Part shown: positions 34,816 through 54,653 of the stretch, piece after piece | Layout of the letters: each line of letters starts with the position of its first letter | Numbering within the stretch: position 1 is the stretch's first letter | Source of the DNA: an uncultured Verrucomicrobiae bacterium | Lineage (GTDB): Bacteria; Verrucomicrobiota; Verrucomicrobiia; Chthoniobacterales; Chthoniobacteraceae | DNA: 64,000 nucleotides | Assembly (NCBI GenBank): GCA_963836755.1 | Contig: CAWIKF010000002.1 | Location: forward strand, 1,664,001-1,728,000 | Direction of reading: 5' to 3' | Program-made: the position numbers and the translations under genes | Notes under the pieces: generated by a model | The model's database searches: none | The model's input: the letters and a program-made list of their open reading frames with translations, nothing else | What the model was told of the DNA's origin: nothing

Positions 34816-35586
34816 TTAGCTCATGCTCTTATCCGGCGGCAGGCCGAGGCGGGTGCGTAGCGAAGCATTGGCGGAGTCGGAGTAGGGGCGCTCGGCGTCC
34901 ACCGCGAGCTGGAGTTTGCGGCGGCGGCGGCTGATTTGATCGCAGGCATCCGCGAAGGTTTGGCGGTTTTGGCTCGCTTTGCTTTGCGCGCCGCTTTGCG
35001 TGGTCTGGATGCCGGCGTAGCTGCCGAGATCGGTCTCCAGTTGCTCGATTTTCGGCTGATCGAAGCCGGGGAGGGTATCCTGCGGGGTGATGACGTTCCC
35101 CGCATCGTCGCGGGTGCGCAGGAGGGTAAAGACGGCGGTGCCGGCGGCGGTGATCTGGACGCGGGAGCCGAGGGGCTGGCCGACGTAATAGGCGGCGAGC
35201 CGTGCGGAATCGGTCTCCTCGTATTTTTCCTTCGCGCGGGCCTGGACGCTGCGAATGGCGGCGATGGCGGTGGCCTGGTCGCCGCCTTCCGTGCCGGTGA
35301 CCGTGTGAAAAGTGGCGGTGGCGCTGGTGGCGTTCGCGGCGAGGTGCCCGGCGTCGGTGGCCTGCACGGAGAGTGCCTGGAGGCTGGCGAGGGTGATGGG
35401 GACGGTGTTGTCGCGGTCGATGAAATGGGTGGCGAGCTCGGCGGCGAGGGCGGTATCGGTGCCGATTTCATCGACGGCAGAGCTGATGATTTCCGTGTCG
35501 GTCTCAAGCTGCTGGAGAAGCCGGCCATCGATGGGGCCACGGGGTTTGCGAGTTTTCGGGGTGGGAGCGGGTGTTGGATCAGCCAT
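34816..35586 (-). CDS. Orphan Ala/Thr-rich helical protein A (256 aa), downstream of a 21-bp array
   Basis: ATG start, gene-like codon bias, Pro-rich N-terminus (MADPTPAPTP), amphipathic helices. Confidence 0.8.
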   Translation of the reverse strand: MADPTPAPTPKTRKPRGPIDGRLLQQLETDTEIISSAVDEIGTDTALAAELATHFIDRDNTVPITLASLQALSVQATDAGHLAANATSATATFHTVTGTEGGDQATAIAAIRSVQARAKEKYEETDSARLAAYYVGQPLGSRVQITAAGTAVFTLLRTRDDAGNVITPQDTLPGFDQPKIEQLETDLGSYAGIQTTQSGAQSKASQNRQTFADACDQISRRRRKLQLAVDAERPYSDSANASLRTRLGLPPDKSMS

Positions 35587-35653
35587 GCGGCGAGAGTAAA
35601 CAGGAAGGCGAGTGCCGGAAAGCTTTTTAAACCCGACTCATTCCAGCCCGAAT

Positions 35654-35884
35654 CCGATGTGAATATTTAGCGATCCGAGGCCGATACTTAGCGATCCGAG
35701 GTGAAGTTTTAGACTTTCGAGGTGAAGTTTTAACGATCCGAAGTGGATGTTTAAGGTTCCGAGGTGAATCGCCAGGCTCCAGAGGTGAAGTTTTAGCGAT
35801 CAAAGGTCGATCCTTAAGCCCGCGAGCTGGAGTTTTAGACTTTCGGGCTGCTGTCTTATCCTTCCGAGCTGAATCCTTAACGCC
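35654..35884. repeat. Degenerate 21-bp tandem array, 11 units, consensus CCGAGGTGAAGTTTTAGCGAT
   Basis: Units start at 35654, 35675, 35696, 35717, 35738, 35759, 35780, 35801, 35822, 35843 and 35864 with no indels. The last unit overlaps the hrpB stop. Confidence 0.93.
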
Positions 35885-38417
35885 ACTCGTGCTTCGGGTA
35901 TTTGCGCTGAAGCTCGATTTTCAACTTCGGGTAGCTCTCGCGCCAGAAGGTGCTGAGGTTTTGCGTGACTTGAATGGGGCGATGGTTCGGGGCGAGGACC
36001 TGGATGACCAATTCGACGCGGCCGGAGGCGATGGTGAGCGCGCCTTCGACGCCGTAAAGTTCCTGGATGCGCGCGGCGACGGTCGGCGCGGCTTTGGCGT
36101 CGTAGAGGATTTTCCACTTTTTGCCGTTCGGCAATGCGATGCGCTCGGGCGCGAACTTTTCCACGAGCTGCTGCTGCGCGGGCGAGAGCCAGCTTTTCAC
36201 GATCGGCAGGACGGGGCGGTCTTTGATCTCCTTGTAAATCATCGCGCCGTGGCAGATGTGCTCGATGACGGCGCGGCGCTCGTCGTCGCCGAATGCGGGG
36301 AGGGCGAGCTCGGGCATCCATTCGCGGAGGCGGTTGACGCGCGTGATCCATTGCTCGACGGCGGCGTCCCATTGCGTGAGGACGCAGGCGCCGTCGAGGA
36401 CGGCTTCGGCGAGGACGCGCGCTGCGGCGTCGGCGGGAACTTTTTCGGTGATTTGCGTGCCGAGGACGAGGTCGCGAAAGGCGGTGTGAGTGCGGGCGAT
36501 GACGCGGCGCTGGATGGGATCGTAGGCGACGTGGGTCTCGGTGCGGAAGGCGTCGGGGTAAAGTTCGCGCAGCCAGCTTTCGTCGATTGCGGTGGCCGTG
36601 TTGAGCAGCGTGGTGAGCTCGCCTTTGATCTCAATCTCGCGCACATCGCTGGCGACGAGGAGCGTGGCGTGCTGCACCACGCTTTCGCGCGCGAGCACGC
36701 CGCGCCGCGCATGGACGAGGTCGCAACGGAGCGTGCCGGCATCGATGCGCTTCGCCACTTGATCGGCGAAGCCGGCGAGGACGCAGCGCTGGATCGCCTC
36801 GTCGTTCGGTTCGCCGCGCTCGAGGTTGAGTTTTTCGGTGCGGGCGATTTTTAGAAACTGCTCGGCGATCTGCGCGGCCTCGCGCGCGGCGGGGCCGTTG
36901 ATGCCGAGCCGGCGGCAGCGTTGCGGGTTGTAATTGCTCTGCTCCGCGTAGCGAAAGGCGCGCATGAGGATGAAAAAATCCGACACTTCCTTCTCGCCGA
37001 GCACATCGGCGCGGTCCTGCGCCATTTGTTTGCCGTCGCTGCGGCGCATCAGGTTTCGCCCTTGTGAAAGCGCGGCGATGAGCGCGATGGCGCGCACGCA
37101 GCCTTGCGTGTCGGCCTCGATGAGCATGCGCGCGTAACGCGGATGCACCGGGAACGCGAGCATCCGGCGGCCGAGCGGCGTGATCGCGCGCGCTTTTTCA
37201 TCGAGCGCGCCAAGGTCTTTCAACAAAGTCTCCGCGCGTTCCAATGCGCGCGCATCGGGCGGCTCGAGCCAGCGGAAATTCGCGATGTCCTCGACGCCGC
37301 TCGCTTTCAAAGTCAGCACGACTTCCGACAAATCGAGCCGCTTCACCTCCGGCAATTCCTGCGCGAAACGCTCCAGATGTTCGCGCTCCGTCCATAGCCG
37401 CAGGCAATGTCCCGGCGCAGTCCGGCCGGCGCGGCCCGCACGCTGATCGGCACTGGCGCGCGAGATTTTTTCGACGAGCAACGTGTTGATCCCGCGATGC
37501 GGATCGAACCGCGCGATGCGCGCGAGGCCACTGTCTATCACGGTTCGCACGCCCTCGATCGTCAGCGAAGTCTCCGCAACGTTGGTCGAGACGATGACTT
37601 TTCTTTTTTCGTAAAACGCGAGCGCGGCGTCCTGCTCGGCCACCGGCAATTCGCCGTGCAGCGGCAGCACGACAAACTCATCGCCGACGCGCGACGCGCG
37701 GATCGACTGGATCGTGCGGCTGATTTCGTAAGCGCCCGGCATGAAGACCAGCACGTCGCCATCGGTCTCGCCGGCGATCCGCTCCAGCTCGTCGGCGGCG
37801 ACGTCCCAGACCGAATATTCGTCGGGGCGAAACGGCTTTGAGATGTGCTCGATCTCGACGGGAAACATCCGCCCGCTCGATTGCAGCATCGCGCACGGCG
37901 CGAGAAATTTCTCGAGCTGCCCGGCGTCGAGCGTCGCGGACATGACGATGATTTTCAGATCGGGCCGCCGCGTTTGCTGGAGATCGAGCGCGCGCGCCAG
38001 CGTGATGTCGCCATACAAATGCCGCTCGTGAAACTCGTCGAAAATGATCGCGCTCACGCCGGGCAAAAGCGGTTCCTGCACGAGTTGTCGCAGCAAAACT
38101 CCCTCCGTCACGAACCGAATCCGCGTCTCCTCCGACACGACGCGGTCGAACCGAATCTGATAGCCGACCTCACCGCCGAGCCGCACGCCGCGCTCCTCCG
38201 CGACCCGCGCCGCGAGCATCCGCGTCGCGAGACGGCGCGGCTGCAAAATCACGATCTCGCCATTGTTTAACAACCCGTGATCGAGCAGCATCTGCGGCAC
38301 CTGCGTCGATTTTCCAGAGCCGGTCGGTGCCTGCAAAATGAGCCGCGGATTTTGCGCGAGCGCATCGATGATCGCGCGCTCGAGTTCAAAGATCGGGAGG
38401 TCGCGCGGCGTAATCAT
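35877..38417 (-). CDS. hrpB: ATP-dependent RNA helicase HrpB
   Basis: APTGSGKST, QPRRLA, DEFHER, MSAT, STNVAETSLTI, QRAGRAGR, C-terminal LAPN.RP.QVT…YPKH.W. Confidence 0.96.
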   Translation of the reverse strand: MITPRDLPIFELERAIIDALAQNPRLILQAPTGSGKSTQVPQMLLDHGLLNNGEIVILQPRRLATRMLAARVAEERGVRLGGEVGYQIRFDRVVSEETRIRFVTEGVLLRQLVQEPLLPGVSAIIFDEFHERHLYGDITLARALDLQQTRRPDLKIIVMSATLDAGQLEKFLAPCAMLQSSGRMFPVEIEHISKPFRPDEYSVWDVAADELERIAGETDGDVLVFMPGAYEISRTIQSIRASRVGDEFVVLPLHGELPVAEQDAALAFYEKRKVIVSTNVAETSLTIEGVRTVIDSGLARIARFDPHRGINTLLVEKISRASADQRAGRAGRTAPGHCLRLWTEREHLERFAQELPEVKRLDLSEVVLTLKASGVEDIANFRWLEPPDARALERAETLLKDLGALDEKARAITPLGRRMLAFPVHPRYARMLIEADTQGCVRAIALIAALSQGRNLMRRSDGKQMAQDRADVLGEKEVSDFFILMRAFRYAEQSNYNPQRCRRLGINGPAAREAAQIAEQFLKIARTEKLNLERGEPNDEAIQRCVLAGFADQVAKRIDAGTLRCDLVHARRGVLARESVVQHATLLVASDVREIEIKGELTTLLNTATAIDESWLRELYPDAFRTETHVAYDPIQRRVIARTHTAFRDLVLGTQITEKVPADAAARVLAEAVLDGACVLTQWDAAVEQWITRVNRLREWMPELALPAFGDDERRAVIEHICHGAMIYKEIKDRPVLPIVKSWLSPAQQQLVEKFAPERIALPNGKKWKILYDAKAAPTVAARIQELYGVEGALTIASGRVELVIQVLAPNHRPIQVTQNLSTFWRESYPKLKIELQRKYPKHEWR

Positions 38418-41966: not shown

Positions 41967-43559
41967 CTAATGCCGCTGATCGACCTTCGCCGGCGGCGGC
42001 TGTTCCGGCGGCAGCGATGCCGCAAAAGTCTTCCAAGGCTGCGACTCGACTTTGAAAGCGTAGGCCATTTTGCACGGGCGCTTGCTTTCGTCCTGCAACT
42101 CCGCGGGCATCTCGATCGAAACTTTGTCGCCATCCTGATGCCATTGCAGATCGTGGTCGTAGCCGAGCATGCGGATCGCCGAGCCGGGCGCGGGCCGCAC
42201 CAGCGCGGTCTCCAATTTCTCCCCCGGCCATTTCATGCTGAGGATGTAGACAAACTTCTTGTCCTTCGAGCGGGTGAAGCGGAGATCGTCGCCGTCGTGA
42301 TACCGCAGATAAGCGCGCGTCGCGTAGATGCTTTCGCCGTTGACCTTCAGCCAATCGCCCGCGGTCTTGAGTTGCTCGACCGCCGTCGGCGAAAACTTCC
42401 CGTTGCCGTCGGGCCCGACCGCGACCATGAACGCGCCACCCTTCGCGACTGAATCGATGAGATTGCGCACGATCCATTCGCCGCCTTTGTAGTCCTTTGG
42501 ATCCGGATCAAAAGCGAACGACGTCGCCAGCGGATAGATCACGAACCACGGCATGTCCGTATTCTGCGTATCGCCGGGAACGAAACGCTCGGGAGTAAAG
42601 TAGTCGCCATAGTTCCCGATGCCGCGCGCGCGCAGCATCACATCCGGCTGAAGCTTCCGCAGCGCGAACAGCGTCGAGCGCAGCTCCGGCCAGACCTCTT
42701 TGCCCAGCCACATATCGAGGCAGAGCATGTCGATCTTCCCATACTTCGTCAGCAGCTCGGTCAATTGCGCCCGATGCCGCGCCATCATCCGCGCCCGCTC
42801 CTCCGCGGTGGGCGCGGGGGCATTCTCCATGATGAGACCTTTCGGATCGATGGTGCTCGCGCCCTCGACCGGACTTTTCGCCACATGCGCCGGATGATCC
42901 ACATAAGGGCGGAAGTCGGCGTCATACCAATCGGGATGGGAAAAGTAGAGATCAATGGCCAGCCCATACTTGCGGCCCGCGTCGCAGAGCTCCTTCACGA
43001 TATCGCGGTGAAACGGCGTCTCCATGATGCTGTAGGCCAGGTCGCAATCCTCCAGTTGCGGCCCGCCCGGCGCCGCCCAGTTCACCCGCTTCTTCACCCG
43101 CGTCGCAGTGTCAAACATCGAGAAACCCTCATGATGCTTCGCCGTGAATGCGAACATCTTCATCCCATCCTCGCGGAACATCTTCATCCAGTCATCCGCG
43201 TTGAAGCCGACCGGATTCCACGTTTTATACAGCTCATTATAAGCCGCCTTCTTCGCATACGGCATCTTCAGGAAAGGCCACGACGTATCCGTGATCTCCC
43301 AGATCGAATAAATCCCCCAGTGAATCCGCACCCCATACTTGAGGTCGCGGAACGCCTCGTAAGCCGCCGGCGACGCGTGGTGATAACCGCCGATCGGCAC
43401 CTCCTCCACATAACTCTTTGTCGACTTATACTGCGAATCGTCCTTTGGCAGCGTGATGTTCGGCGTCGGCAGCCCCGGCTCATGCCGCGCAGGCCCGGGT
43501 GAAGTCGCGACGAGAGAGAGCGACAGAGCCACCAGGAAAAACAGGGGTATATGCTTCAT
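41967..43559 (-). CDS. Alpha-L-fucosidase (GH29), secreted
   Basis: K.G..IHWG.YS, F.AD.W, T.KHHEGF.MF, DIV.EL..A, YFS..DW, WL..NGE.IY.T; signal peptide. Confidence 0.9.
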   Translation of the reverse strand: MKHIPLFFLVALSLSLVATSPGPARHEPGLPTPNITLPKDDSQYKSTKSYVEEVPIGGYHHASPAAYEAFRDLKYGVRIHWGIYSIWEITDTSWPFLKMPYAKKAAYNELYKTWNPVGFNADDWMKMFREDGMKMFAFTAKHHEGFSMFDTATRVKKRVNWAAPGGPQLEDCDLAYSIMETPFHRDIVKELCDAGRKYGLAIDLYFSHPDWYDADFRPYVDHPAHVAKSPVEGASTIDPKGLIMENAPAPTAEERARMMARHRAQLTELLTKYGKIDMLCLDMWLGKEVWPELRSTLFALRKLQPDVMLRARGIGNYGDYFTPERFVPGDTQNTDMPWFVIYPLATSFAFDPDPKDYKGGEWIVRNLIDSVAKGGAFMVAVGPDGNGKFSPTAVEQLKTAGDWLKVNGESIYATRAYLRYHDGDDLRFTRSKDKKFVYILSMKWPGEKLETALVRPAPGSAIRMLGYDHDLQWHQDGDKVSIEMPAELQDESKRPCKMAYAFKVESQPWKTFAASLPPEQPPPAKVDQRH

Positions 43560-43722
43560 GGGGAGAGCAGGGAAACGAGCGGCGGGCATCCAAAACCATT
43601 CCGCATCCGCGCATCAAGAATTTTTTTTAACACAGCCAATCGGACCCAAGCTCGCGGATCAAAGTCCGGCCCCCACGCGCCGGCCTCCCGCGCACATGCC
43701 CGGCGAGCGCGAAAAGCCGCGC

Positions 43723-43932
43723 CGCCGCGAGATGCGTTGCGCGTCAAAGTTGAGCCGGTCTTGCCGCCGCCAGATCGCCTCCGCGCCAAATCTGAGCCGA
43801 TCTCACCGCCGCGAGATGCACTCCGCGTCAAAACTGAGCCGATCTCGCCGCCGCAAGATGCACTCCGCGCCAAAAATTAGCCGATCTCGCCGCCGCGAGA
43901 TGCATTCAACTGGCAGATTGAGCCGATTCCTC
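43723..43932. repeat. 42-bp tandem array, 5 units, consensus CGCCGCGAGATGCACTCCGCGTCAAAACTGAGCCGATCTCGC, with internal inverted arms GCGAGAT/ATCTCGC
   Basis: Units start at 43723, 43765, 43807, 43849 and 43891, with high similarity and no indels. Confidence 0.95.
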
Positions 43933-44064
43933 CCCGGTTTTTGGACATTCCGCCGGGCGCGGAGACCATAAAATGTCGCATTTTGGACAAAAGCCCGGTT
44001 TGCGCTTGTCATCGACCCGCGCTGCCCCTAGCATCGCGGCTCAATTCCAAACCCATCTAATAAC

Positions 44065-44790
44065 ATGCCCAAATACCAAGCACCCACCTCAGACGCCAGC
44101 CGCCTGAGCTTCCTCCAAACCGCCGTCAAAACCGCCACCGGCGCGGACGCGGGTAAAAATTACGTCACGGCCGCCACCATCACGGCGGTGCAGGCGTTCG
44201 TGCCGCAGTTCGCGCCCGCCGCGACGGGCATCGCGGGCCTGCTCGCCCACCGCGTGCAGGATGTGGCCCAGCGGGAAGCGGCGCGCGCAACGCTCGACAC
44301 CTGCCTCTCGGATTTCTGGGAAGTGCTCAAGCGCCGCGTCCATCGCAAGGGCGAACCCGCCGCCGTGCTCGCCTTTTATAAGCTGCCGGCCGATGGCTCG
44401 GTGCCCGCTGTGAACACCTTTGCCGACCTGACCACCATGGCCGCCGAAGTGATCGCCGGCGATGCGCAAGCCGTTGCCGCCGGTCATCCCGCGATGGCCA
44501 ATCCCGACGCCGCCGAGCTGCAAGCCGCGCTCACCGCCGCGAATGCCGTGGCCGGCAACGTGCCGACGAGCGACCGCGCCTATGACGACGCGCAAAAGGC
44601 GATCGCCGCGTTGCGCCCGCGCGCGGATGAATTGATCGGCGACGTGATGGACGATCTGCGCAATTCGCTGCGCAAGACCGATTACCCGAGCCAGCGCCGC
44701 GTGATGCGCACCTACGGCGCAACCTTTACTCCACTCCCCGGCGAACCCGCCGACCCGACGCCCGCGCCGGTGACACCGCCGTCGCCTTAA
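44065..44790 (+). CDS. Orphan Ala-rich helical protein B (241 aa), downstream of the 42-bp array
   Basis: ATG after an AT-rich leader, gene-like codon bias, Pro-rich C-terminus (PADPTPAPVTPPSP). Confidence 0.85.
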   Translation: MPKYQAPTSDASRLSFLQTAVKTATGADAGKNYVTAATITAVQAFVPQFAPAATGIAGLLAHRVQDVAQREAARATLDTCLSDFWEVLKRRVHRKGEPAAVLAFYKLPADGSVPAVNTFADLTTMAAEVIAGDAQAVAAGHPAMANPDAAELQAALTAANAVAGNVPTSDRAYDDAQKAIAALRPRADELIGDVMDDLRNSLRKTDYPSQRRVMRTYGATFTPLPGEPADPTPAPVTPPSP

Positions 44791-44822
44791 AGCCACGACG
44801 CAAGCTGTTCCCCGCTTTTTCC

Positions 44823-46610
44823 ATGCGATGTTTTCCCGGCGTGATGGTGGCGGTTCTGCTCGTGGGGTGGCGTGCGACGGTGTCTTGGGGGCAGGTGGCT
44901 GCGGAGCGGCCGGCTTTGCTGGTGTCGCCTGTCGCGCCGGTGCGTTTTGAAACGCGCGGGGGCGTTTATTTTGCGGACTTCGGCTCGGATGCTTTCGGGA
45001 ATTTGCAGGTGACTTTTCCAGGCGATGTCCGCGCGGCGAAGGTGACGATCCGGCTGGGGGAAAAGTTGGGCGCGGATGGGCGGATCGACCGGAAGCCGCC
45101 GGGGAGCGTGAATTACTGCGAGGTGGTTTTGATGGCGCAGCCGGGGCTCTGTCGGACGCGCATCCCGCTGAAGAAGGGGGCGCAGAGCGGGCCGAACGCG
45201 GTGAAGGAGGCGGCGGGGATCGGGAATGTGACGCCGTTTCGCTACGCGGAGATCGAGGGGAGTCCGGTGGCGCTGGATGCGGGCGTGGTCCGGCAGTTGT
45301 GCGTGCATACGGCGTTCGATGACGGCGCGAGTGCGTTTACCAGCTCGGATCCGACGCTGAATGCGGTGTGGCTTTTGTGCAAGCATACGATGAAGGCGAC
45401 GACGGCATTCGGTGTGTATATCGACGGGGAGCGGGAGCGGCGTCCCTACGAGGCGGATGCTTATATCAATTTCCTCTCGCACATGGCGTGCGATTTTAAT
45501 CCCGAGGTGGGGCGTTACACGATCGAGTATTTGCTGGCGCACCCGACGTGGCCGACGGAGTGGAGTTTGCACATGCCGATGCTGGTGGCGGCGGAGTATG
45601 AGGCGACGGGGGACGCGGCGCTGGCGTCGCGCAATTATGATGCGCTGAAGGGAAAGCTGATGATGGAAAAAGCGCGGGAGGATGGGCTGCTGCGGGCATC
45701 GGCGATCGTGGATTGGCCGGCTGGCGAGCGGGATGGATACAATGGCGGGGTGGCCGATCCGGAGCAGAAGCAGGAAGTCGGGCCGATGATCAACACGGTG
45801 GCGAATGCGTTTTATTTCCGTGCCTTGAAGGAGATGGCGGTGCTCGCGCGCGCTTTGCGCAAGGAGGAGGATGCGCGGACTTTTGACGCGAAGGCGGCGC
45901 AGGTTTGCGAGCGGGTCAATGCGATCCTTTTCGACACGAAGCGCGGGCTTTACATCGATGGCGAAGGCTCGGGGCACTCATCGCTGCACGCGAATATGTT
46001 TCCGCTCGCGTTCGGCATGGTGCCGGCGGCGCGGGAAAAGCGAGTCACGGATTTCGTGCAATCGCGCGGGATGGCGTGTAGCGTCTATGGCGCGCAATAT
46101 CTGCTGGAAGCTCTCTACAAGGCGGGACGGGATGATGCCGCGCTGCAGTTGCTCACGTCGCGCGGGGAGCGGAGCTGGTGGAACATGATCGCGGCCGGCT
46201 CGACGATGACGATGGAGGCGTGGGACATGAAGTTGAAGCCGAACGCGACGTGGAACCACTCGTGGGGGGCGGCACCGGCGAATATCATCGCGCGCTATCT
46301 GGTGGGCGTGCGGCCATTGACGCCGGGCTACGGGAAAATCCTCATTGCGCCGCGGCCGGGGACATTGGAGTCATTCGAGGGGAAAGTGCCGACAGCGCGC
46401 GGGCCGGTGAACGTGGATTTCCAGAAGGCGAGGGGCCGTTATGAGATCGGGGTGCCGGAGGCAATTGCGGCGCGTGTGTCACTGCCGCGGGCAACTTTCA
46501 CCGGCAGGCAGGTTTTGATGGACAAGAAGATGGCAGCGTCCAGTGAGGATGGCGATGAATTGACCTTCGAGGACGTTGGGCCGGGGCGGCACGTGTTTAG
46601 GCAGGAGTAG
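44823..46610 (+). CDS. Alpha-L-rhamnosidase (GH78-like)
   Basis: DFG, FRY.E, F.SSD..LN..W, D..RER..Y..D, DW, T..EAW, NHSW, P..PGY..I.I.P. Confidence 0.88.
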   Translation: MRCFPGVMVAVLLVGWRATVSWGQVAAERPALLVSPVAPVRFETRGGVYFADFGSDAFGNLQVTFPGDVRAAKVTIRLGEKLGADGRIDRKPPGSVNYCEVVLMAQPGLCRTRIPLKKGAQSGPNAVKEAAGIGNVTPFRYAEIEGSPVALDAGVVRQLCVHTAFDDGASAFTSSDPTLNAVWLLCKHTMKATTAFGVYIDGERERRPYEADAYINFLSHMACDFNPEVGRYTIEYLLAHPTWPTEWSLHMPMLVAAEYEATGDAALASRNYDALKGKLMMEKAREDGLLRASAIVDWPAGERDGYNGGVADPEQKQEVGPMINTVANAFYFRALKEMAVLARALRKEEDARTFDAKAAQVCERVNAILFDTKRGLYIDGEGSGHSSLHANMFPLAFGMVPAAREKRVTDFVQSRGMACSVYGAQYLLEALYKAGRDDAALQLLTSRGERSWWNMIAAGSTMTMEAWDMKLKPNATWNHSWGAAPANIIARYLVGVRPLTPGYGKILIAPRPGTLESFEGKVPTARGPVNVDFQKARGRYEIGVPEAIAARVSLPRATFTGRQVLMDKKMAASSEDGDELTFEDVGPGRHVFRQE

Positions 46611-46625
46611 CTGGCGTGTTTGCGG

Positions 46626-49271
46626 CTAAGCCGAGGGCGAGGGTTTGGGCGTTGGTATTTGCGTTGGTAGAATCGTTGGCAGCTCAATGCCGGGCGTGAT
46701 GAACTCTCTCACGCTTCTGACCGTCAACTGGCCATGGAGATCGTCGATGGAACGGTCGCGGCTGCATTCGATGTCGATCGTCACCGGCACGCCGGGCTCG
46801 AGATGCACGAAGTTGTCCGAGTAGCGCGCGTCCGGTTCTTTCGGGAGGTTGATCCAGGTCCAGAGCGCGGGCTTGGCGCTCGTTAGCGTGACGCTGAAGT
46901 TTTTTCCCTTGCCCGACGTTTTCGCCTCAATCGTCGGCTCCGGCAGCGTGAGCTGCCCGGGCAGTGCGAAGAGCGAGAGATTGGTCTCCGCCGGGCCGCC
47001 TTCGGGAGTCACCGTCATCCACAGCAGCAGGTTCGCGAGGCCCGCTGCCTTTTCCGTGTCACTCAGAACGACCGATTCCGCGAGCATCGTGCCGTTGGCG
47101 GGGAGTTGGATGGCCGTTTCCTTGTGCCGCAATACTTTCCCGCCCGTTGTGGCCAGTCGCCAGGACAGCGATGCCTTCCCACCCGTGAGCCGATCATTGA
47201 TGACGTGAATGTCGACCTTTCCCAACTCGGAGTCCACGTCACCCGAGACCAGCACCGGCGCAAACATGTGCCTCGCGTGATATTGCGACGCCTTCCACCG
47301 GTGATAGTAGTCGATCATCGACCAGGATTGCCCCGGCCAGGAATCGTTGTATTGCCAGACCAGCGCTGCGGTGGAATGCGGCCGGTCCCGCCGCCAATGC
47401 TCGACGGCGAAGCGCAGTCCGAAGGCTTGAACGATCTGGCTCAGCCAGAAAACGTCGTCGATCTTTTCCGGAACTTTGCCGAAGTAACGGAACACCTGCT
47501 TCAGGATCTCGTCTTGAGCAGAAAGTTCGTGGTGTTGGAGGATCGGCGAGCCAACCCCGGCGGCCAGGTCGGCATCGGTGGCGAACCTCCGCGTCGAGGC
47601 CGGCTCGAGATAGGATTGGACTCCGAACTCCGCGATGAAGCCATGATTTTGGGCGTAACGGGAGAAGGGATTGCTCCCGTGCCCGAGTCCCCAATCGTGG
47701 TAGTCCGGGGCGCCGCCGCCGCCGCTGGATTCCTGGTATGGCTGCCCCGGCGCCAGCTTGCGCACAGCTCCGCCGATCACCTGGTCGAAAAGCTCCGCGT
47801 AGCCCACATAACCCCTGATCTCGTTGTTGCCGCTATAAATGGCGATCGAGGGATGATGCCGGACCCGCAGGATCTGGTCCTCGAGTTCCGCCTTCACGTT
47901 GGCGATAAACTTCTCGTCGAAACTGGGGTAGGACGTGTTGGCAAACTTGAACTCGAACATCAGCGCGATGCCCAGCTCATCGCAGGCATCGAAGAGCGCG
48001 TCATCCTCGTAAAAACCGCCGCCCCAGAGCCGGATGAAGTTGAAGTTGCACGCCGCCGCGTCCTGCATATACGAGCGCAGCACCTCGGGCGTGATCCGCG
48101 CCAGCAGATTGTCGGGGGGGATCATATCCGCTCCCTTGGCGAAAAACGGCTGCCCGTTGACCTTCAGCGTATAAGCCGCCTCCCGCGTCTTCGGGACCGT
48201 CTCGAATTGCCGCAGCCCGATCCGTTTTCGCATCGTATCGAGCACCGTCCCGCCGGCGTCCAGCAACTGCACCTCCACGGTGTAGAGGTTCTGCTCGCCC
48301 AGCCCGTTTGGCCACCAGAGCTTCGGCTGCGGGACGGTCAGCGTGAGCGCCGCCGCCAGATTCGCGACCGATTGCTTAACCGGTCCGCCTTCTTCCAGCA
48401 GGCGCGCGCTCACCGCACAGCCCGCGGGAGGCAGGCCAGCCAGGTCCGCCGCCACATCGAGCCGCACGGAACCATCGGAAGCGTGGTGCTGGATGATGGC
48501 CAGCTTCGCCAGCCGAGAATCATAGGCGCGCAGTTCGATGCCCTTCCAGATGCCCATCGTCATGATCGGACGGCACCAGTCCCAACCCCATTGATACGGC
48601 GCTTTGCGGATCCAGCCCCAGCTCCGGTTGTGCATGGAAGCGCGCACGCTTGATTGTTGTTTGACGTCGTCAGGCAGAACGTTCGGGTGCTCTTTGAGGT
48701 AAGCCTCCGTCAAGGCGTTCGTTTCCGCGTGATCGGGGACCGGTTGAAATTGGATTTCGAGCTCGTTCGAGCCCGGCTTGAGGGCTTGCTTCACGTCGAA
48801 GATCCAAGTCCGAAACATGTTATTGGTGGAGCCAAGAACCACGCCATTCAGCGTCACCGTGGCCAACGTATCCAGTCCATGACAGACCAATTCCACCGTT
48901 TTCGCCGCGAATTGCTTCGTCGTGGCCTCGAACGTCCTCCGATAAATCCACCCGGTTAGCGCGGCCTCGTCCTTGATGTCGTTCCCCATCCTGTCCTTGT
49001 TATTATCCCGGTAATAGGGATCGGGTATTTTCCCAGCGCGCAGCAAGTCGCTGTAATTGTCGCCCGGCACCTGCGCAGGCAGCTTCGCGCTCTTCCCAAC
49101 CTGCTGAAGCGTCCACGCCATTCCGCCAAGATCCATCGTCAGCACCTGGGTCGGGAGAGGTATTGCGGCCGATGCTGTTGTGACTTGCGCGGCTCGCGCG
49201 AATCTCCAAGGGCTAAGAGCCAATCCAGTCACTCCCATTCCGCAGACTTTGCTAAACGTGCGTCGATTCAT
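46626..49271 (-). CDS. GH2 beta-mannosidase with Tat signal
   Basis: MNRRTF twin-arginine signal, VPG, GLDT, RK.PY..GWDW, LWWPNG.G.Q.LY, RLWGGG.YE, HPSI..Y.GNNE, EFG.Q, WQ.ND.WP..SWS.IDY. Confidence 0.93.
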   Translation of the reverse strand: MNRRTFSKVCGMGVTGLALSPWRFARAAQVTTASAAIPLPTQVLTMDLGGMAWTLQQVGKSAKLPAQVPGDNYSDLLRAGKIPDPYYRDNNKDRMGNDIKDEAALTGWIYRRTFEATTKQFAAKTVELVCHGLDTLATVTLNGVVLGSTNNMFRTWIFDVKQALKPGSNELEIQFQPVPDHAETNALTEAYLKEHPNVLPDDVKQQSSVRASMHNRSWGWIRKAPYQWGWDWCRPIMTMGIWKGIELRAYDSRLAKLAIIQHHASDGSVRLDVAADLAGLPPAGCAVSARLLEEGGPVKQSVANLAAALTLTVPQPKLWWPNGLGEQNLYTVEVQLLDAGGTVLDTMRKRIGLRQFETVPKTREAAYTLKVNGQPFFAKGADMIPPDNLLARITPEVLRSYMQDAAACNFNFIRLWGGGFYEDDALFDACDELGIALMFEFKFANTSYPSFDEKFIANVKAELEDQILRVRHHPSIAIYSGNNEIRGYVGYAELFDQVIGGAVRKLAPGQPYQESSGGGGAPDYHDWGLGHGSNPFSRYAQNHGFIAEFGVQSYLEPASTRRFATDADLAAGVGSPILQHHELSAQDEILKQVFRYFGKVPEKIDDVFWLSQIVQAFGLRFAVEHWRRDRPHSTAALVWQYNDSWPGQSWSMIDYYHRWKASQYHARHMFAPVLVSGDVDSELGKVDIHVINDRLTGGKASLSWRLATTGGKVLRHKETAIQLPANGTMLAESVVLSDTEKAAGLANLLLWMTVTPEGGPAETNLSLFALPGQLTLPEPTIEAKTSGKGKNFSVTLTSAKPALWTWINLPKEPDARYSDNFVHLEPGVPVTIDIECSRDRSIDDLHGQLTVRSVREFITPGIELPTILPTQIPTPKPSPSA

Positions 49272-49387
49272 TTTCCAATGGTGTGTCGGCGTGGCTGGAA
49301 ATGCAAAGGCGTTCTGCAATTTCGATGTCCTATTAACTCATCAAAATTCACCCGCACATCTGATCGTGTGATACATGTTCAACACCA

Positions 49388-51592
49388 ATGAAAACACTCC
49401 CCAAGTGGTTGTCAGTGCTGGTCAGCCTTTGCGCGCATTCTGTTTATGCTCAGGTTTCCCCGCCGTCCCCAAACGTAACCCAATACGTGAACCCGATGAT
49501 CGGGGTTTCGAACGGGCCCGGCGAATACCCCGGCGCTCAGGTTCCCTTCGGTTTGCTTGCATGGAATCCCGTAAACACGGTGAAGGCCTGGAGTGTTTAC
49601 ACCGGCGGCAGTATTAATTGGTTTGCACTTTCCACGGTGCAAGGAATCGGCGCCGGCGCGATGGCGGATGTTCCCCACATGGTCACCGTCAATGCTTGCA
49701 CCAGCGCGCCCGGTCGCTCGAATGTTTATGGAACGACCATTAGCGACGAGGTTACTTCCCCCGGTTACTACAAAGTTCATTTGGTAAAGCCGAACGTCGA
49801 TGTGGAAATGGCCGCTGCCGTTCATTCTGGCATCGCGAAATACACGTTCCCGGCTTCGACGGATTCATGCGTGATTTTTGATCCGCTCGCGCTCACCGGC
49901 CCATCGGGCGCCATCACGATCGATCGCGACAAACACATCGTCACGGGCAGTGCCGTGGCCACCGACTTTGGTAGAAACATCCATACGACCTACTACGCGG
50001 CGGTTTTTGATCGACCCTTTTCCGCAGTGGGAACGTGGGAAAACGGACAAGGCTTCGTGAAGTTCGACACCAGGTCTGATCCAACCGTCCGGATGAAAAT
50101 TTCCCTCTCTTACGTCAGCGCCGCGAATGCGCTGAATAATCTGAACACGGAAATTCCCGACTGGGATCTGGAGAAGGTAAAATCGGACGCGAATAACGCC
50201 TGGAATACCTTGCTGAGTTCGATCGAATACAAGTCGGGCGCGACGACCGACCGGTTGCAGATGTTTTACACCGCCGTTTATCGCGCCTGTCAGGATCCCA
50301 AAGTCTTTAGCGATACCGATGGGAGATACATTGGCTTTGATGACCAAGTCCACACCATCGTTCCGGGACATCCGTTTTACGCCGGCTTCTCGGGGTGGGA
50401 TGTCTATCGGACCCAGGCCCAACTCCTGGCGATCATTGCTCCAAAAGTCGCCTCCGACTACGTCCGCTCGCTCGTGATCTCCGGGCAGCAAAATAAAGGA
50501 AAGATGCCAAAATGGACGTGGGGAAACAAAGAAACCAACTGCATGTCGGGAGGTCCTGCGTGCGCTTACATCGGTAGCGCCTACGCCTTTGGGGCCACAG
50601 ATATCGATCTCGCCGCAACGAAGGATGCGTTGATCAAATACGGCACGACCCCGTCGCTAGGATGGAGTTCATTGGCAGACCATATGGCAGGCGGAAATAA
50701 CAAGAGCCAAGCCGAAGAGATGGAATCAGCGGCTGCGGATATGGGCGTCGCGACGATTTGCAAGGCCGCCGGCGATCAAGCCAACACCATCTATTTCAGA
50801 AACCGGGCGCAGACGATTTTCAATCTTTGGGACCCGGCGAGGGTAGATAGCGTGGGGGAAACGGGGAACTTCAAAGGCGCCGGGCGCGAAACCTTCATCG
50901 AGGAGCAAATCTGGTGCGCCCCTTTCAACTACGGAAAGCTGATCTCGCTGATGGGCGGAGCTTCCAAAGCCATTGCCCGACTGGATAAACACACTTCTCA
51001 AATGGTTCCTTACAACGACCAGCCTTACTACAATCCCGCCAACGAACCAGGAATCGCGATTCCCTATGTTTACAACTGGTTGCAGGTGCCTTGGAAAGCG
51101 CAGCACTTGATTCGCCGGATCATGACCGAATCGTTCGTCAATAGCCGCTTATGGATTGGCGGTCTCCCCAAGTTGCCGAAGCCGCCTTGCGTTTGGTGCC
51201 CGAACGATGACACGGGCACGATGTCTTCCTGGTATGCGTATATGACGCTGGGACTTTATCCCGCCATCCCCGGCATTGGCGGATTCACGATTACGTCGCC
51301 GCTTTTTTCATACACGATTCACCTCAAAAACGGGAAAGACATCAGCGTCACCGCCAAGAACGCCTCCATCACTAATGAATACATCCAAAGCATGACGATC
51401 GACGGAGTTCCCAACCAGAAGCTCTGGATTTCATGGGATCGATTGAAAAACGGCGCCAGCTTGGTCTTCGTCTTGGGCGACAAACCTAACCCCAGCTGGG
51501 GAGCAGCTCCGGACGATGCCCCGCCATCTTTCGGGCCCGTGGATGAAGACAAGAAATCGAAGACGCCGGTGCAGGCGATGCTCCATCGGTAG
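49388..51592 (+). CDS. GH92 alpha-mannosidase family protein
   Basis: VNP.IG, PGA..PFG, PGYY, FYTA.YR, FSGWD.YR, NEP, NDD.GTMSSW, GLYP..PG. Confidence 0.9.
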   Translation: MKTLPKWLSVLVSLCAHSVYAQVSPPSPNVTQYVNPMIGVSNGPGEYPGAQVPFGLLAWNPVNTVKAWSVYTGGSINWFALSTVQGIGAGAMADVPHMVTVNACTSAPGRSNVYGTTISDEVTSPGYYKVHLVKPNVDVEMAAAVHSGIAKYTFPASTDSCVIFDPLALTGPSGAITIDRDKHIVTGSAVATDFGRNIHTTYYAAVFDRPFSAVGTWENGQGFVKFDTRSDPTVRMKISLSYVSAANALNNLNTEIPDWDLEKVKSDANNAWNTLLSSIEYKSGATTDRLQMFYTAVYRACQDPKVFSDTDGRYIGFDDQVHTIVPGHPFYAGFSGWDVYRTQAQLLAIIAPKVASDYVRSLVISGQQNKGKMPKWTWGNKETNCMSGGPACAYIGSAYAFGATDIDLAATKDALIKYGTTPSLGWSSLADHMAGGNNKSQAEEMESAAADMGVATICKAAGDQANTIYFRNRAQTIFNLWDPARVDSVGETGNFKGAGRETFIEEQIWCAPFNYGKLISLMGGASKAIARLDKHTSQMVPYNDQPYYNPANEPGIAIPYVYNWLQVPWKAQHLIRRIMTESFVNSRLWIGGLPKLPKPPCVWCPNDDTGTMSSWYAYMTLGLYPAIPGIGGFTITSPLFSYTIHLKNGKDISVTAKNASITNEYIQSMTIDGVPNQKLWISWDRLKNGASLVFVLGDKPNPSWGAAPDDAPPSFGPVDEDKKSKTPVQAMLHR

Positions 51593-51635: not shown

Positions 51636-53261
51636 CTATTCCGCGGCGATGTGCGCGCCTTTCTCGGCGACCGAGCGTTTCATGAAAAATACCAGCGGGA
51701 CCAGCGCGAGCGAGACTGCCGCGAAGACGACGAAGCTGTCAAAGTAGGCGAGCGACGACGCCTGGATCTCGCGCAGGTTTTCCAGCGCAGCGAGCCCGAG
51801 CTGTTTCGCCGCGGCGGGATCGCCGTTGTTGTGCAGGAAGCCCGATTGCGCCTGCGCGAGAAAGTCGGTGACGGCGCGGTTGAGCGTGTCGAGATTTTCG
51901 CCGAGGCGGAGCGTGTGGAATTGCTCGCGCCGCTCGTGGATGGTCTGCGCGACCGAGGTGCCGACGCTGCCGCCTTCGTTTCGTAACAGCGCGAGCAGGC
52001 CGACAGCGGCGCCGCGCATCTGCGGCGGGATTCGGAGAAATGCGGCGACATTCACCGGCGCAAAAGTCATCGACAGCCCGGCGATGATGACCACGCGCGG
52101 CCAGACGACCTGCCACGGGCTGATGTCGAGCGTGAGGCGCGACATCCAGAAAGTCCCCGCCGCCATGGTGAAAAGTCCGCACCCGATGATCCACCGCGCA
52201 TCGGTGCCGCGCCCGAGCAGCGTGCCGACGATGACGAGCATCATCACCGCGAAAATTCCCGCCGGCGAAAGGACGAGGCCGGACGTCGTCGCATCGTAGC
52301 CGAAGAGCGTTTGCAGCAGCGAGGGGAGCGCCGTGGTGTTCGCGTAAAGCGAGGCAAAAGTGCAGAAGATGATGATGCAGCACCATCGGAAATTCGTATC
52401 GGCGAGCGTGCGGAAATTGATCAGCGGATTCGCAATCCGCATTTCGCGCCAGACCAGCGCGCCGAGACTTACGACAAAGAGCGCCGACAAAACCTGCACG
52501 CGCCAGAACGGGTCACCAAACCAATCCCACTCCTGCCCTTTGCTCAGCGCGATTTCCCAGCAGACCATCGTGAGACTCAGCAGGCAGAGGCCGATGGTAT
52601 CGAATGGCGCGTGCCTTTTGCGCATCGCGGCCTGCTCGGCCTGCAAATAAGCGGGATCGCGGACGACGAGATTGCAAACCCAGAGCGCGAAAAGTCCGAC
52701 GGGGAGATTGAGGTAAAAGATCCAGCGCCAGCCGTAGTTGTCCGTGATGAAGCCGCCCAGCGTCGGCCCGACCACCGGCGCGAGCAGCGCGGCAATTCCA
52801 AAGAGCGCCTGCGCCGCGCCCTGCTTCTCCTTTGGAAAAGCATCGAGCAACACCCCCTGGCTCGACGGTTGCAAGCCGCCGCCGGCAAACCCCTGCAACA
52901 CACGCGCCCCGATCAGCATGCCGAGACTCGTCGCCATTCCGCACAGCACCGAGGCGAGCGTGAACACGCCGATCGAGAGCAAAAAGTAATTGCGCCGCCC
53001 GAGCCGCAGCGCGAGCCAGCCCGAGATCGGCAGCACGATGGCATTCGCCGCGAGGTAACTCGTGATAACCCATTCGCTATCGGTGACCGGCGCCGAAAGC
53101 CCGCCCGCCATGTAACGCAGCGCCACGTTCGCGATCGTGGTGTCGAGCACCTCCATGAACGTCGGAATCACCACCGCCAGCGCGACGATCCAGGGATTGA
53201 AGATGCGCGGCTGTGCAGCAGCGACAGGCATCGCAACTGCCGATGTGGAAATAGTCTTCAC
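51636..53261 (-). CDS. emrB: DHA2 (EmrB/QacA) MFS efflux permease
   Basis: FMEVLDTTIANVAL, WVITSYL, RVLQG..GG, GPTLGG.ITD…WRWIF..N.P, R..GGS.G. Confidence 0.93.
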   Translation of the reverse strand: MKTISTSAVAMPVAAAQPRIFNPWIVALAVVIPTFMEVLDTTIANVALRYMAGGLSAPVTDSEWVITSYLAANAIVLPISGWLALRLGRRNYFLLSIGVFTLASVLCGMATSLGMLIGARVLQGFAGGGLQPSSQGVLLDAFPKEKQGAAQALFGIAALLAPVVGPTLGGFITDNYGWRWIFYLNLPVGLFALWVCNLVVRDPAYLQAEQAAMRKRHAPFDTIGLCLLSLTMVCWEIALSKGQEWDWFGDPFWRVQVLSALFVVSLGALVWREMRIANPLINFRTLADTNFRWCCIIIFCTFASLYANTTALPSLLQTLFGYDATTSGLVLSPAGIFAVMMLVIVGTLLGRGTDARWIIGCGLFTMAAGTFWMSRLTLDISPWQVVWPRVVIIAGLSMTFAPVNVAAFLRIPPQMRGAAVGLLALLRNEGGSVGTSVAQTIHERREQFHTLRLGENLDTLNRAVTDFLAQAQSGFLHNNGDPAAAKQLGLAALENLREIQASSLAYFDSFVVFAAVSLALVPLVFFMKRSVAEKGAHIAAE

Positions 53262-53386
53262 AGCTTCATGCTCGCGCTTGATTCTTGCCGTGCCTGACGA
53301 ACACGGCTTTCCAACTCAGCAATCCTTTTGGGTAAATCCAACCGGTCAGGAATCTGTGTCATGTGCAGGACTAAACGTCGCGCAAA

Positions 53387-53528
53387 TCCGACTTGGTCTT
53401 TCAAAGGTCTCGCGCAGATGCGCGAAGGATCGGGAGCTGCCGCTCTTCATCAACCGATACCAATGCTCCAACGCACTTCGCGGATGTTCTGCGGCGAAGT
53501 CGTTCAGCCGCTTGCGCATGATGTGCAT
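53387..53528 (-). pseudogene. higB: Truncated HigB-family type II toxin relic
   Basis: MHI.RKRL.DFA..HP.SALEHWY..MK…SFA.LRETF, then DQVG in a shifted frame. This matches the HigB N-terminus (…TFPSADxVG). The C-terminus and higA are absent. Confidence 0.7.
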
Positions 53529-53561
53529 TCGATGGATTCGAAGTCACACGGCTCAGCCCGA

Positions 53562-54263
53562 CTATGGTTTTGGTGGCGTGGTCGGCGGCTCGGGCTTCTT
53601 GCGCTGCGGGGCGCGCTCGATGTGGCTGGCGCTTTGCCACGCGCGGAGTTTGTCGGCGTTGCGCGCGTATTTGTTGTGGATGATGGCGTCGAGGTAGTTG
53701 ACTTCTTTCATCCCGGCTTTGATGAGGCGGCCGATTGCGGCGGTGCTTTCGACCCCTTCGCTGTCATCGCTCTCGTTGGCGTTCTGTTCGTTGCCGATGG
53801 CCTGGCGGTCGTCGGCGAGGTGGGTGACGAAATCGGCGGGAAGTTCGTGCGCTACGAATTTGGCGACGAGCGCGACCTTGGCGGCTTTTTGCGTGGCGGT
53901 GTCATTGTCGCCGGGTTGAAACTGAAGAAGATAAGCGTCGGCGGTGGTGAGGATACTTTCATGGCTCGGGCTCTCCGGCGGGCGGAAGTTGTCTGCGAAA
54001 CCGGGCTCGTCCTGCGCGATGGCGCGGGCGGTGCGGCCGATGTTTTGCAGGTCGAGGCGGAGGGAGTCGAAGAGGACTTCGAGGGCGGTGTTGCCGCCGC
54101 CTAGCTGCTTCGCTTTTTCGATGGCGAGGTCTTTGTGGATTTGGGCGACATTGGCAAAGCGTTTTTGCGCCTCGCCGCCGGCGGCAAAGTCCCCGGTGTT
54201 GTCGGTGCCAAAGGTTTCGACGCGGCCAAACATGTCATAACGGCGGGTTTCACGATCATTCAT
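53562..54263 (-). CDS. Orphan helical protein C (233 aa from ATG 54263), downstream of a 21-bp array
   Basis: MNDRETRRYDMFGRVETF…, amphipathic helices, Pro/Lys-rich C-terminus (KKPEPPTTPPKP). Confidence 0.85.
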   Translation of the reverse strand: MNDRETRRYDMFGRVETFGTDNTGDFAAGGEAQKRFANVAQIHKDLAIEKAKQLGGGNTALEVLFDSLRLDLQNIGRTARAIAQDEPGFADNFRPPESPSHESILTTADAYLLQFQPGDNDTATQKAAKVALVAKFVAHELPADFVTHLADDRQAIGNEQNANESDDSEGVESTAAIGRLIKAGMKEVNYLDAIIHNKYARNADKLRAWQSASHIERAPQRKKPEPPTTPPKP

Positions 54264-54422
54264 AAAGGCGATAGCTCGGTTGTTTTGTAAGGGTGAGACT
54301 GCCCGCAGAGCCTGTGAGCCCATGAAACAAACGTCGAGCGAAAAACAACACCTTTTTTACAGAACGTTGAGTTTTTCTTTGAGTGCGACGTGGCCAGGCG
54401 TGAATCGACACGCAAGTGCATC

Positions 54423-54653
54423 ATTTACACGCCCGAAGGCTGGATTTACACGCTCCAAGGCTCAGCTCGCACGCTCCAAGGCTCGATTTACACGCGCGAA
54501 GATCTCAGCTCGCACGGGCTGCGACGAGGCTGACACAGCCCTGGCCCGGCATGCAAAGGTCTGAACTAAGCGCGCACACGCTTGGGATGATCTCGCACAC
54601 GAATACGGGGCGCTCGCAAGCGGCTGGAGGCATCGCGCAGGAGGCGGGAGTTC
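54423..54653. repeat. Degenerate 21-bp tandem array (~11 units); best units about ATTTACACGCTCCAAGGCTCA / GCTCGCACGCTCCAAGGCTCG
   Basis: Clear units at 54423, 54444, 54465 and 54486. Degenerate units with a (C)TCGCAC/CGCGCA-like core at about 54508, 54529, 54549, 54570, 54591, 54612 and 54633. Confidence 0.82.

What the first reader, a model, noticed from the sequence alone, without database searches (positions are those of the whole stretch)
34816..54653. Recurring module: a ~230-bp array with a 21-bp period upstream of an orphan ~240-aa helical protein (candidate undescribed system)
Seen in sequence: three times within 20 kb, an intergenic degenerate tandem array lies on the 5' side of an unannotated 233-256 aa Ala-rich gene. 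The pairs are 35654-35884 (11x21 bp) with 34816-35586(-), 43723-43932 (5x42 bp) with 44065-44790(+), and 54423-54653 (~11x21 bp) with 53562-54263(-). Repeat sequences differ completely between loci. What is conserved is the period (21 or 2x21 bp), the total length (210-231 bp), the position (~70-160 bp before the ATG), the protein size and a Pro-rich tail. Established: 21 bp is two B-DNA turns and also 7 codons. Inference: architecture conserved without sequence conservation suggests cognate array/protein pairs. Possible roles are (i) a helically phased DNA binding or loading site on which the protein oligomerises, like parC or iterons; (ii) a repeat RNA leader acting on the protein, the layout of type III toxin-antitoxin loci although these proteins do not look like ToxN; or (iii) a heptad-repeat peptide partner. 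No recombinase is encoded in the window, yet one copy interrupts a normally contiguous gene pair.
Basis: partly seen in the sequence, partly recalled or inferred. Interest (0 to 1): 0.88.

Follow-up and report, generated by a model that had tools for sequence, protein, structure and literature searches.

The report
Mobile DNA arrays with cognate proteins
Three stretches of DNA repeats spaced two helical turns apart, each in front of an unknown helical protein, belong to a large undescribed family of repeat-plus-protein elements that move around bacterial chromosomes, and the symmetry of the repeats matches the build of the protein, which suggests the protein coats its own repeats.

Summary
The three arrays and genes are real, and they are 3 of 64 strong 20.5-21-bp-period arrays in this 3.2-Mb genome (control periods: 0, 4, 5). 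About 24 lie upstream of helical-bundle genes, with or without an Ig/FN3 domain. The rest are solo copies, and four are in-frame insertions in alaS, ispG, nrdJ and an RND permease that relatives lack. Module C interrupts an emrA-emrB pair that is contiguous in six relatives. Homologues carry their own arrays (C 43/75, A 16/19; 17/600 random genes). The arrays are not coding: periods run 20.5-22 and there is no codon-position signal. New result: unit symmetry follows protein build. One-module families have palindromic units (39/44, 7/12), two-module families do not (0/41, 0/24, 2/15), and the one-module domain is predicted to homodimerise (0.85, best control 0.00). Best reading: each protein polymerises on its own array, one module per helical turn, and the arrays spread without an encoded recombinase. 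DNA binding and the mobility mechanism are inferred, not shown. A, B and C are only weakly linked by sequence. The scan noted similar array-gene pairs before on other DNA; ten literature searches found no description.

The parts
34816..35586 (-). Gene A, 256 aa two-module helical protein
   Evidence: ORF; 39 homologue clusters; AF2 pLDDT 89.5 with two long helices 66-122 and 177-232; conserved basic clusters K119/K121 and R220-K224
35652..35886 (-). Array A, 11 x 21 bp, asymmetric unit, ends 66 bp before the ATG; distal end overlaps the hrpB-like stop by about 10 bp
43721..43937 (+). Array B, 5 x 42 bp (two 21-bp sub-units, dyad symmetry at the 42-bp level)
   Evidence: symmetry z 3.1, p 0.01 at period 42, z 1.5 at period 21
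44006..44034 (+). sigma70-like promoter (TTGTCA-17-TAGCAT) between array B and gene B
   Evidence: 1 found, 0.2 expected; consensus match only
44065..44790 (+). Gene B, 241 aa two-module helical protein with Pro-rich tail
   Evidence: AF2 pLDDT 90.5; halves homologous, hhalign prob 55.6, E 1.2e-4; 1279 clusters at 50% identity
53562..54263 (-). Gene C, 233 aa helical protein with Pro-rich tail (two modules inferred, not folded)
   Evidence: 408 homologue clusters; 80 genome loci; homologous to the L011 family, hhalign 97%, E 1e-10
54408..54650 (-). Array C, 11 x 21 bp, asymmetric unit, distal half degenerate, ends 144 bp before the ATG
51636..53261 (-). emrB-like MFS gene, downstream flank of the module C insertion
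   Evidence: PF07690; adjacent to the emrA-like gene in 6 relatives
54656..56140 (-). emrA-like membrane-fusion gene, upstream flank of the module C insertion
   Evidence: HlyD-type domains; match to relative G002 stops at 54681 and resumes at 53224

Best explanation
Each locus is one copy of a two-part chromosomal element: a non-coding DNA array of about 250 bp (10-17 units, two helical turns each) and a cognate helical-bundle protein encoded just downstream. The binding unit is a pair of helical modules covering 21 bp, one module per turn. One-module proteins pair as homodimers and have palindromic units; proteins with two modules in one chain (A, B, probably C) act as pseudo-dimers and have asymmetric units. 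The protein most likely polymerises along its array into a phased nucleoprotein rod next to its own promoter (autoregulation likely). The element behaves as selfish DNA: whole modules land between genes, and array-only or 3'-truncated copies land elsewhere, including in-frame in housekeeping genes. No catalytic domain is encoded, so host machinery must do the joining; my best guess is capture of a protein-protected DNA fragment by end-joining or illegitimate recombination during repair or transformation. SHOWN: arrays, linkage to the genes, no coding signature, insertions relative to kin, symmetry rule. PREDICTED: folds of A and B, homodimer of a one-module domain. INFERRED: DNA binding and specificity (about 0.7), autoregulation (about 0.5), the insertion route (about 0.3).
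For: Arrays upstream of homologues: C 43 of 75 (3 of 73 downstream), A 16 of 19, random genes 17 of 600; one-module family 58 of 60; L011 family 24 of 28 and L013 family 12 of 15. Mean periods 20.5-22; no codon signal. Symmetry: palindromic units in 39 of 44 and 7 of 12 one-module arrays, against 0 of 41, 0 of 24 and 2 of 15 two-module arrays; within this genome 7 of 10 vs 3 of 13 or 9 of 10 vs 2 of 13. Homodimer of the one-module domain: score 0.85, best of 3 controls 0.00, runs agree in at least 94% of contacts, pLDDT at least 89; the mark was reached by 20 of 30 solved homodimers and 1 of 23 single chains. B is internally duplicated. Array similarity falls with protein divergence on the sense strand only: 71%, 48%, about 10% and 3% of pairs, other families 1-3%. 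Conserved Arg/Lys columns near the helix ends. Mobility: emrA-emrB contiguous in 6 relatives; in-frame inserts absent from relatives, and a different 21-bp-period array at the same AlaRS loop in G002; 11 of 14 multi-copy array families include a gene-linked member; several solo copies share only the repeat tract; no neighbour shared by more than 3 of 80 C loci.
Against: No binding experiment, and no known DNA-binding fold was matched; the proteins are net slightly acidic (median -2 to -5). The one-module domains are not detectably homologous to the halves of A, B or C, and A, B and C link only at E about 1e-3, so a shared module is an inference. C and L011 were not folded and their halves show no similarity. 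The symmetry rule rests on two against three families, not on independent loci; arrays B and L009 are symmetric at the 41/42-bp level despite two-module genes. Two paralogues 74% identical have unrelated palindromes, and two 28% identical ones share an array type. Co-variation could be plain linkage; the unbiased motif test was modest (best words 11:3 to 13:5, two words null) and no protein segment stood out clearly. 32 of 75 C homologues have no array. A stop-free sense frame is more common than in shuffles (46 of 64 vs 33.6). A strict promoter consensus was found in only 11 of 40 gaps (3.7 expected) and not for A or C.
Confidence: 0.6

Rival explanations
1. Host-useful binding platform rather than selfish DNA: the same protein-array complex serves the cell (chromosome organisation or anchoring, titration of the protein, or a stress or phage sensor), and solo arrays are kept as extra sites.
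For: About 40 strong arrays without a gene keep full length; the Ig/FN3 domain could recruit a partner; families are large and widespread.
Against: Patchy distribution (A in 15 of 151 family genomes; B in 1 of 301 phylum genomes), no conserved neighbours, insertions into essential genes, pseudogenes and 5' fragments, no PADLOC hit.
Confidence: 0.17
2. The arrays are minisatellite-bearing MITE/REPIN-like elements moved in trans by a host transposase, and the genes are passengers that do not bind them.
For: Solo and in-frame copies resemble RPEs (PMC10969869, passages) and BrickBuilt (PMC4596501); the genome has two Y1_Tnp matches.
Against: No shared leader, tail or terminal inverted repeat and no convincing target duplication; dozens of unrelated unit sequences with one period; passengers would not produce the symmetry rule.
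Confidence: 0.12
3. The array is a repeat RNA acting on the protein, as in type III toxin-antitoxin loci.
For: Array sits 5' of the gene in a fixed orientation; dyad symmetry could form RNA stems.
Against: Promoter-like site lies between array and gene, with no sense-strand terminator there for B; no Rfam match; no ToxN-like hit; genes without arrays occur with the upstream region intact, which a toxin should not tolerate; the period is locked to two helical turns.
Confidence: 0.06
4. The array encodes a heptad-repeat peptide that partners the protein.
For: 21 bp is 7 codons; a stop-free sense frame occurs in 46 of 64 arrays vs 33.6 in shuffles; stop triplets are rarer on the sense strand.
Against: 18 of 40 C-family best periods are not multiples of 3; differences are flat over codon positions and the synonymous share is the same in open and closed frames; array C has stops in all three sense frames.
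Confidence: 0.04

Closest known systems
KfrA of IncU plasmid RA3 and its repeated operator (PMC7783346; abstract and section 10 read)
   Same: Mostly alpha-helical, oligomerising protein encoded next to a repeated DNA site at its own promoter; autoregulation.
   Different: KfrA has an HTH and five 9-bp repeats overlapping the promoter, found once on a plasmid. Here no HTH was found, there are 10-17 units of 20.5-22 bp mostly upstream of the promoter, the loci are chromosomal and multi-copy, no plasmid match was found, and the arrays move alone.
Centromere/adaptor pairs such as parC-ParR and tubC-TubR, and replication iterons (features recalled, not from a call)
   Same: Helically phased repeats beside the gene of a protein expected to bind them cooperatively.
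   Different: No motor NTPase or Rep gene is a conserved neighbour; no RHH or wHTH match; dozens of chromosomal copies.
BrickBuilt minisatellite MITE of Porphyromonas gingivalis (PMC4596501; abstract and part 1 of section 7 read)
   Same: Dispersed tandem arrays of a 20-25-bp unit, about 20 copies per genome, near promoters.
   Different: BrickBuilt has one 23-bp unit, leader and tail with IS5-like terminal inverted repeats, is always intergenic, and no cognate gene is described in the parts read. Here there are many unit sequences, no terminal repeats, in-frame copies and a linked gene.
Rickettsia palindromic elements (review PMC10969869; four passages read)
   Same: Short mobile DNA inserted in-frame into unrelated housekeeping genes.
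   Different: RPEs are about 150-bp elements with a conserved peptide; they are not described as phased tandem arrays with a cognate protein.
DUF6261 (PF19775)
   Same: Nearest named Atlas cluster for both B and a C homologue (score 0.87, 32% of members).
   Different: Lead only: no Pfam hit and no match over cut-off in this genome.

Membership tests
Type III toxin-antitoxin | ToxN/TenpN/CptN-like endoribonuclease toxin | tested here: not met
   No Pfam, NCBIfam or PADLOC hit; models of A and B are all-helical bundles
Type III toxin-antitoxin | Order promoter - repeats - terminator - toxin, co-transcribed | tested here: inconclusive
   Promoter-like site lies after the array in B and in 11 of 40 C-family loci vs 3.7 expected; no transcript data
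Type III toxin-antitoxin | Pseudoknot repeat RNA processed by the toxin | not testable with these tools
   No Rfam match; no RNA run listed
Partition centromere/adaptor (ParMRC, TubZRC, ParABS) | Adjacent motor NTPase gene | tested here: not met
   No neighbour shared by more than 3 of 80 C loci; window flanks are unrelated genes
Partition centromere/adaptor (ParMRC, TubZRC, ParABS) | RHH, HTH or wHTH DNA-binding domain | tested here: inconclusive
   No Pfam hit over cut-off; fold searches list only generic helical bundles, best Z 9.1 (rmsd 3.2, 117 aligned) and 9.4 (rmsd 4.7, 118 aligned)
Partition centromere/adaptor (ParMRC, TubZRC, ParABS) | Phased repeats beside the adaptor gene | tested here: met
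KfrA-type proteins | N-terminal HTH head plus long coiled-coil tail, on broad-host-range plasmids | tested here: not met
   Models fold back as helical bundles; no plasmid match for C or the one-module protein
MITE (BrickBuilt, RPE) | Terminal inverted repeats and target-site duplication | tested here: inconclusive
   Only 6-9-bp chance-level repeats near the ends of 7 inserts, but exact ends are unknown because relatives are about 80% identical; no shared ends between copies
MITE (BrickBuilt, RPE) | Short non-coding multi-copy element found at new sites | tested here: met
REP/REPIN with RAYT | REP hairpin pairs flanking a Y1 transposase | tested here: inconclusive
   Y1_Tnp present in the genome but no conserved neighbour in C loci; REP tetranucleotide tags (recalled feature) not tested
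DUF6261 | Match to PF19775 over its cut-off | tested here: not met
Coding heptad VNTR | Period a multiple of 3 with codon-position selection | tested here: not met

The most novel reading that the evidence does not exclude
A new class of recombinase-free selfish element in which a novel helical DNA-recognition module coats its own phased array, one module per helical turn, and thereby promotes copying or capture of that array into new chromosomal sites. The many sequence flavours in one genome would be orthogonal protein-array pairs, a natural library of modular 21-bp DNA binders.
Probability: 0.3. Interest if true: 0.93.

Novelty: categorically new. Interest (0 to 1): 0.8.

Why it matters
It accounts for a conspicuous, undescribed class of bacterial repeats (64 arrays, 17.5 kb, about 0.5% of this genome) and for large families of hypothetical proteins (1279 clusters at 50% identity for B alone). 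If binding is confirmed, it is a DNA-recognition fold outside the known HTH/RHH classes with dozens of natural specificities and a simple symmetry rule. The arrays also add new repeat peptides to essential enzymes, a route of protein evolution so far known mainly from Rickettsia elements. Every step is directly testable with purified protein and synthetic arrays.

Tried and rejected
Pairwise and profile comparison of A, B and C: no significant match. Fold searches in PDB and BFVD: no clear match, only generic bundles; the PDB sequence search gave two weak hits to an engineered protein. No relatives found in viral contigs for C, the one-module family, B or A or in plasmids for two queries; these searches are word-based and miss distant kin. 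No RNA holder listed. Contigs of three soil runs showed no empty-site joint for any module; one low-depth contig of a close strain has a 1-bp deletion and several substitutions in array C, too weak to use. Empty site for B: flanks not found in the 5 relatives searched; for A the flanks are not adjacent in the relatives, so no empty site was defined. Terminal repeat and duplication search: nothing above chance. A hand-picked core motif was post hoc and replaced by an unbiased test. Sliding-window search for specificity residues: no clear peak; the helical domain tracks the array better than the Ig domain (partial 0.38 vs 0.22), but it also lies closer to the array. Polarity of repeat conservation is slight (26:15 and 16:7). 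Two in-gene hits are natural coiled-coil heptads and were dropped. Literature: ten searches found no description; the library lacks most subscription papers, and no supplements were read.

Full report
OBSERVATION. Refined limits are 35652-35886, 43721-43937 and 54408-54650, 66, 127 and 144 bp before the start codons. The proteins have no family hit over cut-off in Pfam and none in NCBIfam, PADLOC or PHROGs. Named homologues are mostly Verrucomicrobiota, with some Acidobacteriota and Accumulibacter.

GENOME-WIDE PICTURE. The host genome (G000, 3.18 Mb) is dominated by one repeat period. With score >=40 there are 64 arrays at lags 21/41/42/62/63 (median 266 bp, 17.5 kb in all) against 0, 4 and 5 for three control lag sets. 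At a looser threshold, 94 segments split into 24 gene-linked, 53 solo intergenic and 17 inside genes; the weak ones include false positives, since the multiple-of-3 control gives 27 there. The linked genes are 200-350-aa orphans; three have FN3 hits. Of 14 multi-copy array families (one false-positive pair dropped), 11 contain a member linked to an intact or frameshifted gene (classification by me). Several solo copies share only the repeat tract with their gene-linked sibling; others carry the upstream region and the first codons of the gene.

LINKAGE IN OTHER GENOMES. With one criterion (segment score >=22 within 700 bp): C homologues 43 of 75 upstream and 3 of 73 downstream (75 and 73 of 80 loci had enough flank), A homologues 16 of 19 (21 loci given, own-genome and some partial rows left out), random genes 17 of 600. 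For other families of this genome: one-module L005 family 58 of 60 (60 of 80 metagenome loci had enough flank), L013 family 12 of 15 (15 of 19 rows used) and L011 family 24 of 28 (29 of 31 rows given). B homologue loci could not be obtained. No neighbour is shared by more than 3 of 80 C loci.

THE ARRAYS ARE DNA SITES, NOT PEPTIDES. Mean periods run from 20.5 to 22, and 18 of 40 C-family arrays have a best lag that is not a multiple of 3. Differences between units are spread evenly over codon positions, and the synonymous share is 0.27-0.29 in open frames against 0.29-0.32 in closed frames. Against this, a stop-free sense frame is found in 46 of 64 arrays versus 33.6 in shuffles; I read that as strand composition, but did not prove it. 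A sigma70-like site lies between array and gene for B and in 11 of 40 C-family gaps (3.7 expected), though not by strict consensus for A or C. There is no Rfam match. No RNA data were available.

THE PROTEINS. AlphaFold2 gives confident models for B (pLDDT 90.5; helices 10-26, 36-95, 119-138, 149-201, 207-216) and A (89.5; 21-43, 66-122, 142-156, 177-232, 238-246). Both read as a duplicated short-helix/long-helix module. B's halves are homologous (prob 55.6, E 1.2e-4); A's and C's halves are not detectably so. Some B homologues carry an FN3-like C-terminal extension by sequence pattern (no Pfam hit). Fold searches return only generic bundles. C is homologous to the L011 family (97%, E 1e-10), while A and B link to these only at E about 1e-3, and the one-module domains do not link at all. 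One superfamily is therefore likely but unproven. Conserved Arg/Lys columns cluster near the ends of the long helices, although net charge is slightly negative.

SYMMETRY RULE. I tested each aligned repeat unit for dyad symmetry against 200 column permutations. Arrays of proteins with one helical module plus an Ig-like domain are palindromic: 39 of 44 non-redundant arrays (14 near-duplicates removed) and 7 of 12 in a second family. Arrays of proteins with about 230 helical residues are not: C 0 of 41, L011 0 of 24, A 2 of 15. Inside this genome the split is 7 of 10 vs 3 of 13 or 9 of 10 vs 2 of 13 with a simpler method. The prediction that the single module self-pairs was tested: score 0.85, best of 3 controls 0.00, at least 94% contact agreement, pLDDT at least 89, with the long helices antiparallel about residue 63; the mark was reached by 20 of 30 solved homodimers and 1 of 23 single chains. 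This supports dimerisation; it does not show it. Limits: the unit of comparison is five families; module number is shown for B, suggested for A and inferred for C and L011; the Ig-like domain of the L005 family has no Pfam hit; arrays B and L009 are symmetric at the 41/42-bp level, which fits two inverted 21-bp sites but is a post hoc reading.

COGNATE PAIRING. In the C family, pairs of arrays share repeated 6-mers on the sense strand in 71% of pairs above 70% protein identity, 48% at 60-70%, about 10% at 40-60% and 3% at 30-40%; arrays of other families give 1-3%. An unbiased test of words from close arrays on 30 distant arrays gave a modest strand bias. This is compatible with co-evolution but also with linkage. 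Counter-examples exist: 74%-identical paralogues with unrelated palindromes, and 28%-identical ones with the same array type.

MOBILITY. The emrA-like and emrB-like genes that flank module C are adjacent in six relatives, so about 1.45 kb was inserted. Four arrays sit in-frame in alaS, ispG, nrdJ and an RND permease (names). The insert is absent from 5 of 5 ispG, 3 of 3 nrdJ (one locus dropped) and 2 of 2 RND orthologues aligned; of 4 alaS orthologues two have a short loop, one a non-periodic insert and one (G002) a different 21-bp-period array at the same loop. No terminal repeats or duplications above chance were found. No recombinase was found among the window's ORFs. The genome encodes ComEC, Ku and Y1-transposase domains, which are candidates only. 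No relatives were found in viral contigs or plasmids.

MECHANISM. Most likely the protein binds and polymerises on its own array, a module pair per 21 bp, beside its own promoter, and the element spreads as selfish DNA through host joining reactions, with arrays persisting after loss of the gene or being copied alone. Steps shown, predicted and inferred are separated under Best explanation.

KNOWN SYSTEMS AND NOVELTY. It works like a centromere/adaptor or KfrA/operator pair in layout (PMC7783346, abstract and section 10) and like BrickBuilt or RPEs in dispersal (PMC4596501, abstract and part of section 7; PMC10969869, passages), but fails or cannot be shown to meet the defining features of each. 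REPIN papers were seen only as search listings; type III TA, parC/ParR and iteron features are recalled. Ten searches found no description. Earlier notes of this scan report similar 21-bp array/helical gene pairs in other genomes; the multi-family symmetry rule, the homodimer prediction and the in-frame insertions against empty orthologues were obtained here.

Noticed in passing
G000:C1:60318-60581 (inside the alaS reading frame C1:58953-62516): A Y1_Tnp-like stretch lies in-frame within alaS, besides the 21-bp array: this AlaRS appears to carry two different inserts.
   Followed up: no
L139 (G002 alaS) and L141 (G001 alaS): The same AlaRS loop holds a different 21-bp-period array in G002 and a non-periodic insert of about 70 aa in G001: an insertion hotspot.
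   Followed up: partly
G000:C2:2206408-2206746: Full Y1_Tnp (RAYT/IS200-like) domain about 3 kb from an array-gene module.
   Followed up: no
window 34063-34713 (-): DUF4304 ORF (216 aa) directly downstream of gene A; short repeats nearby (about 33970-34070, 34730-34790) recur elsewhere in the genome and in relatives. Possibly a second small insert.
   Followed up: no
window about 53270-53550: About 290 bp between gene C and the emrB-like start belongs to the insertion; part of it matches G021 elsewhere. Unexplained.
   Followed up: no
G000:C1:742589-743448 and C2:1027869-1028484: Frameshifted family genes that keep full arrays.
   Followed up: partly
G000:C1:601820-601959 and C2:2026802-2026978: Weak 21-bp periodic segments inside two further long housekeeping-like genes; possibly decayed in-frame inserts.
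   Followed up: no
L032, L041 (Accumulibacter C homologues): Strong 42/63-bp arrays lie downstream of the gene rather than upstream.
   Followed up: no
window 58512-61160 (+): Adenylate/guanylate cyclase plus NB-ARC (STAND-like) protein, 882 aa.
   Followed up: no
window 41967-51592: Cluster of glycoside hydrolases (fucosidase, rhamnosidase-like, GH2, GH92) not found in the five relatives searched for its first part; module B sits inside it.
   Followed up: partly
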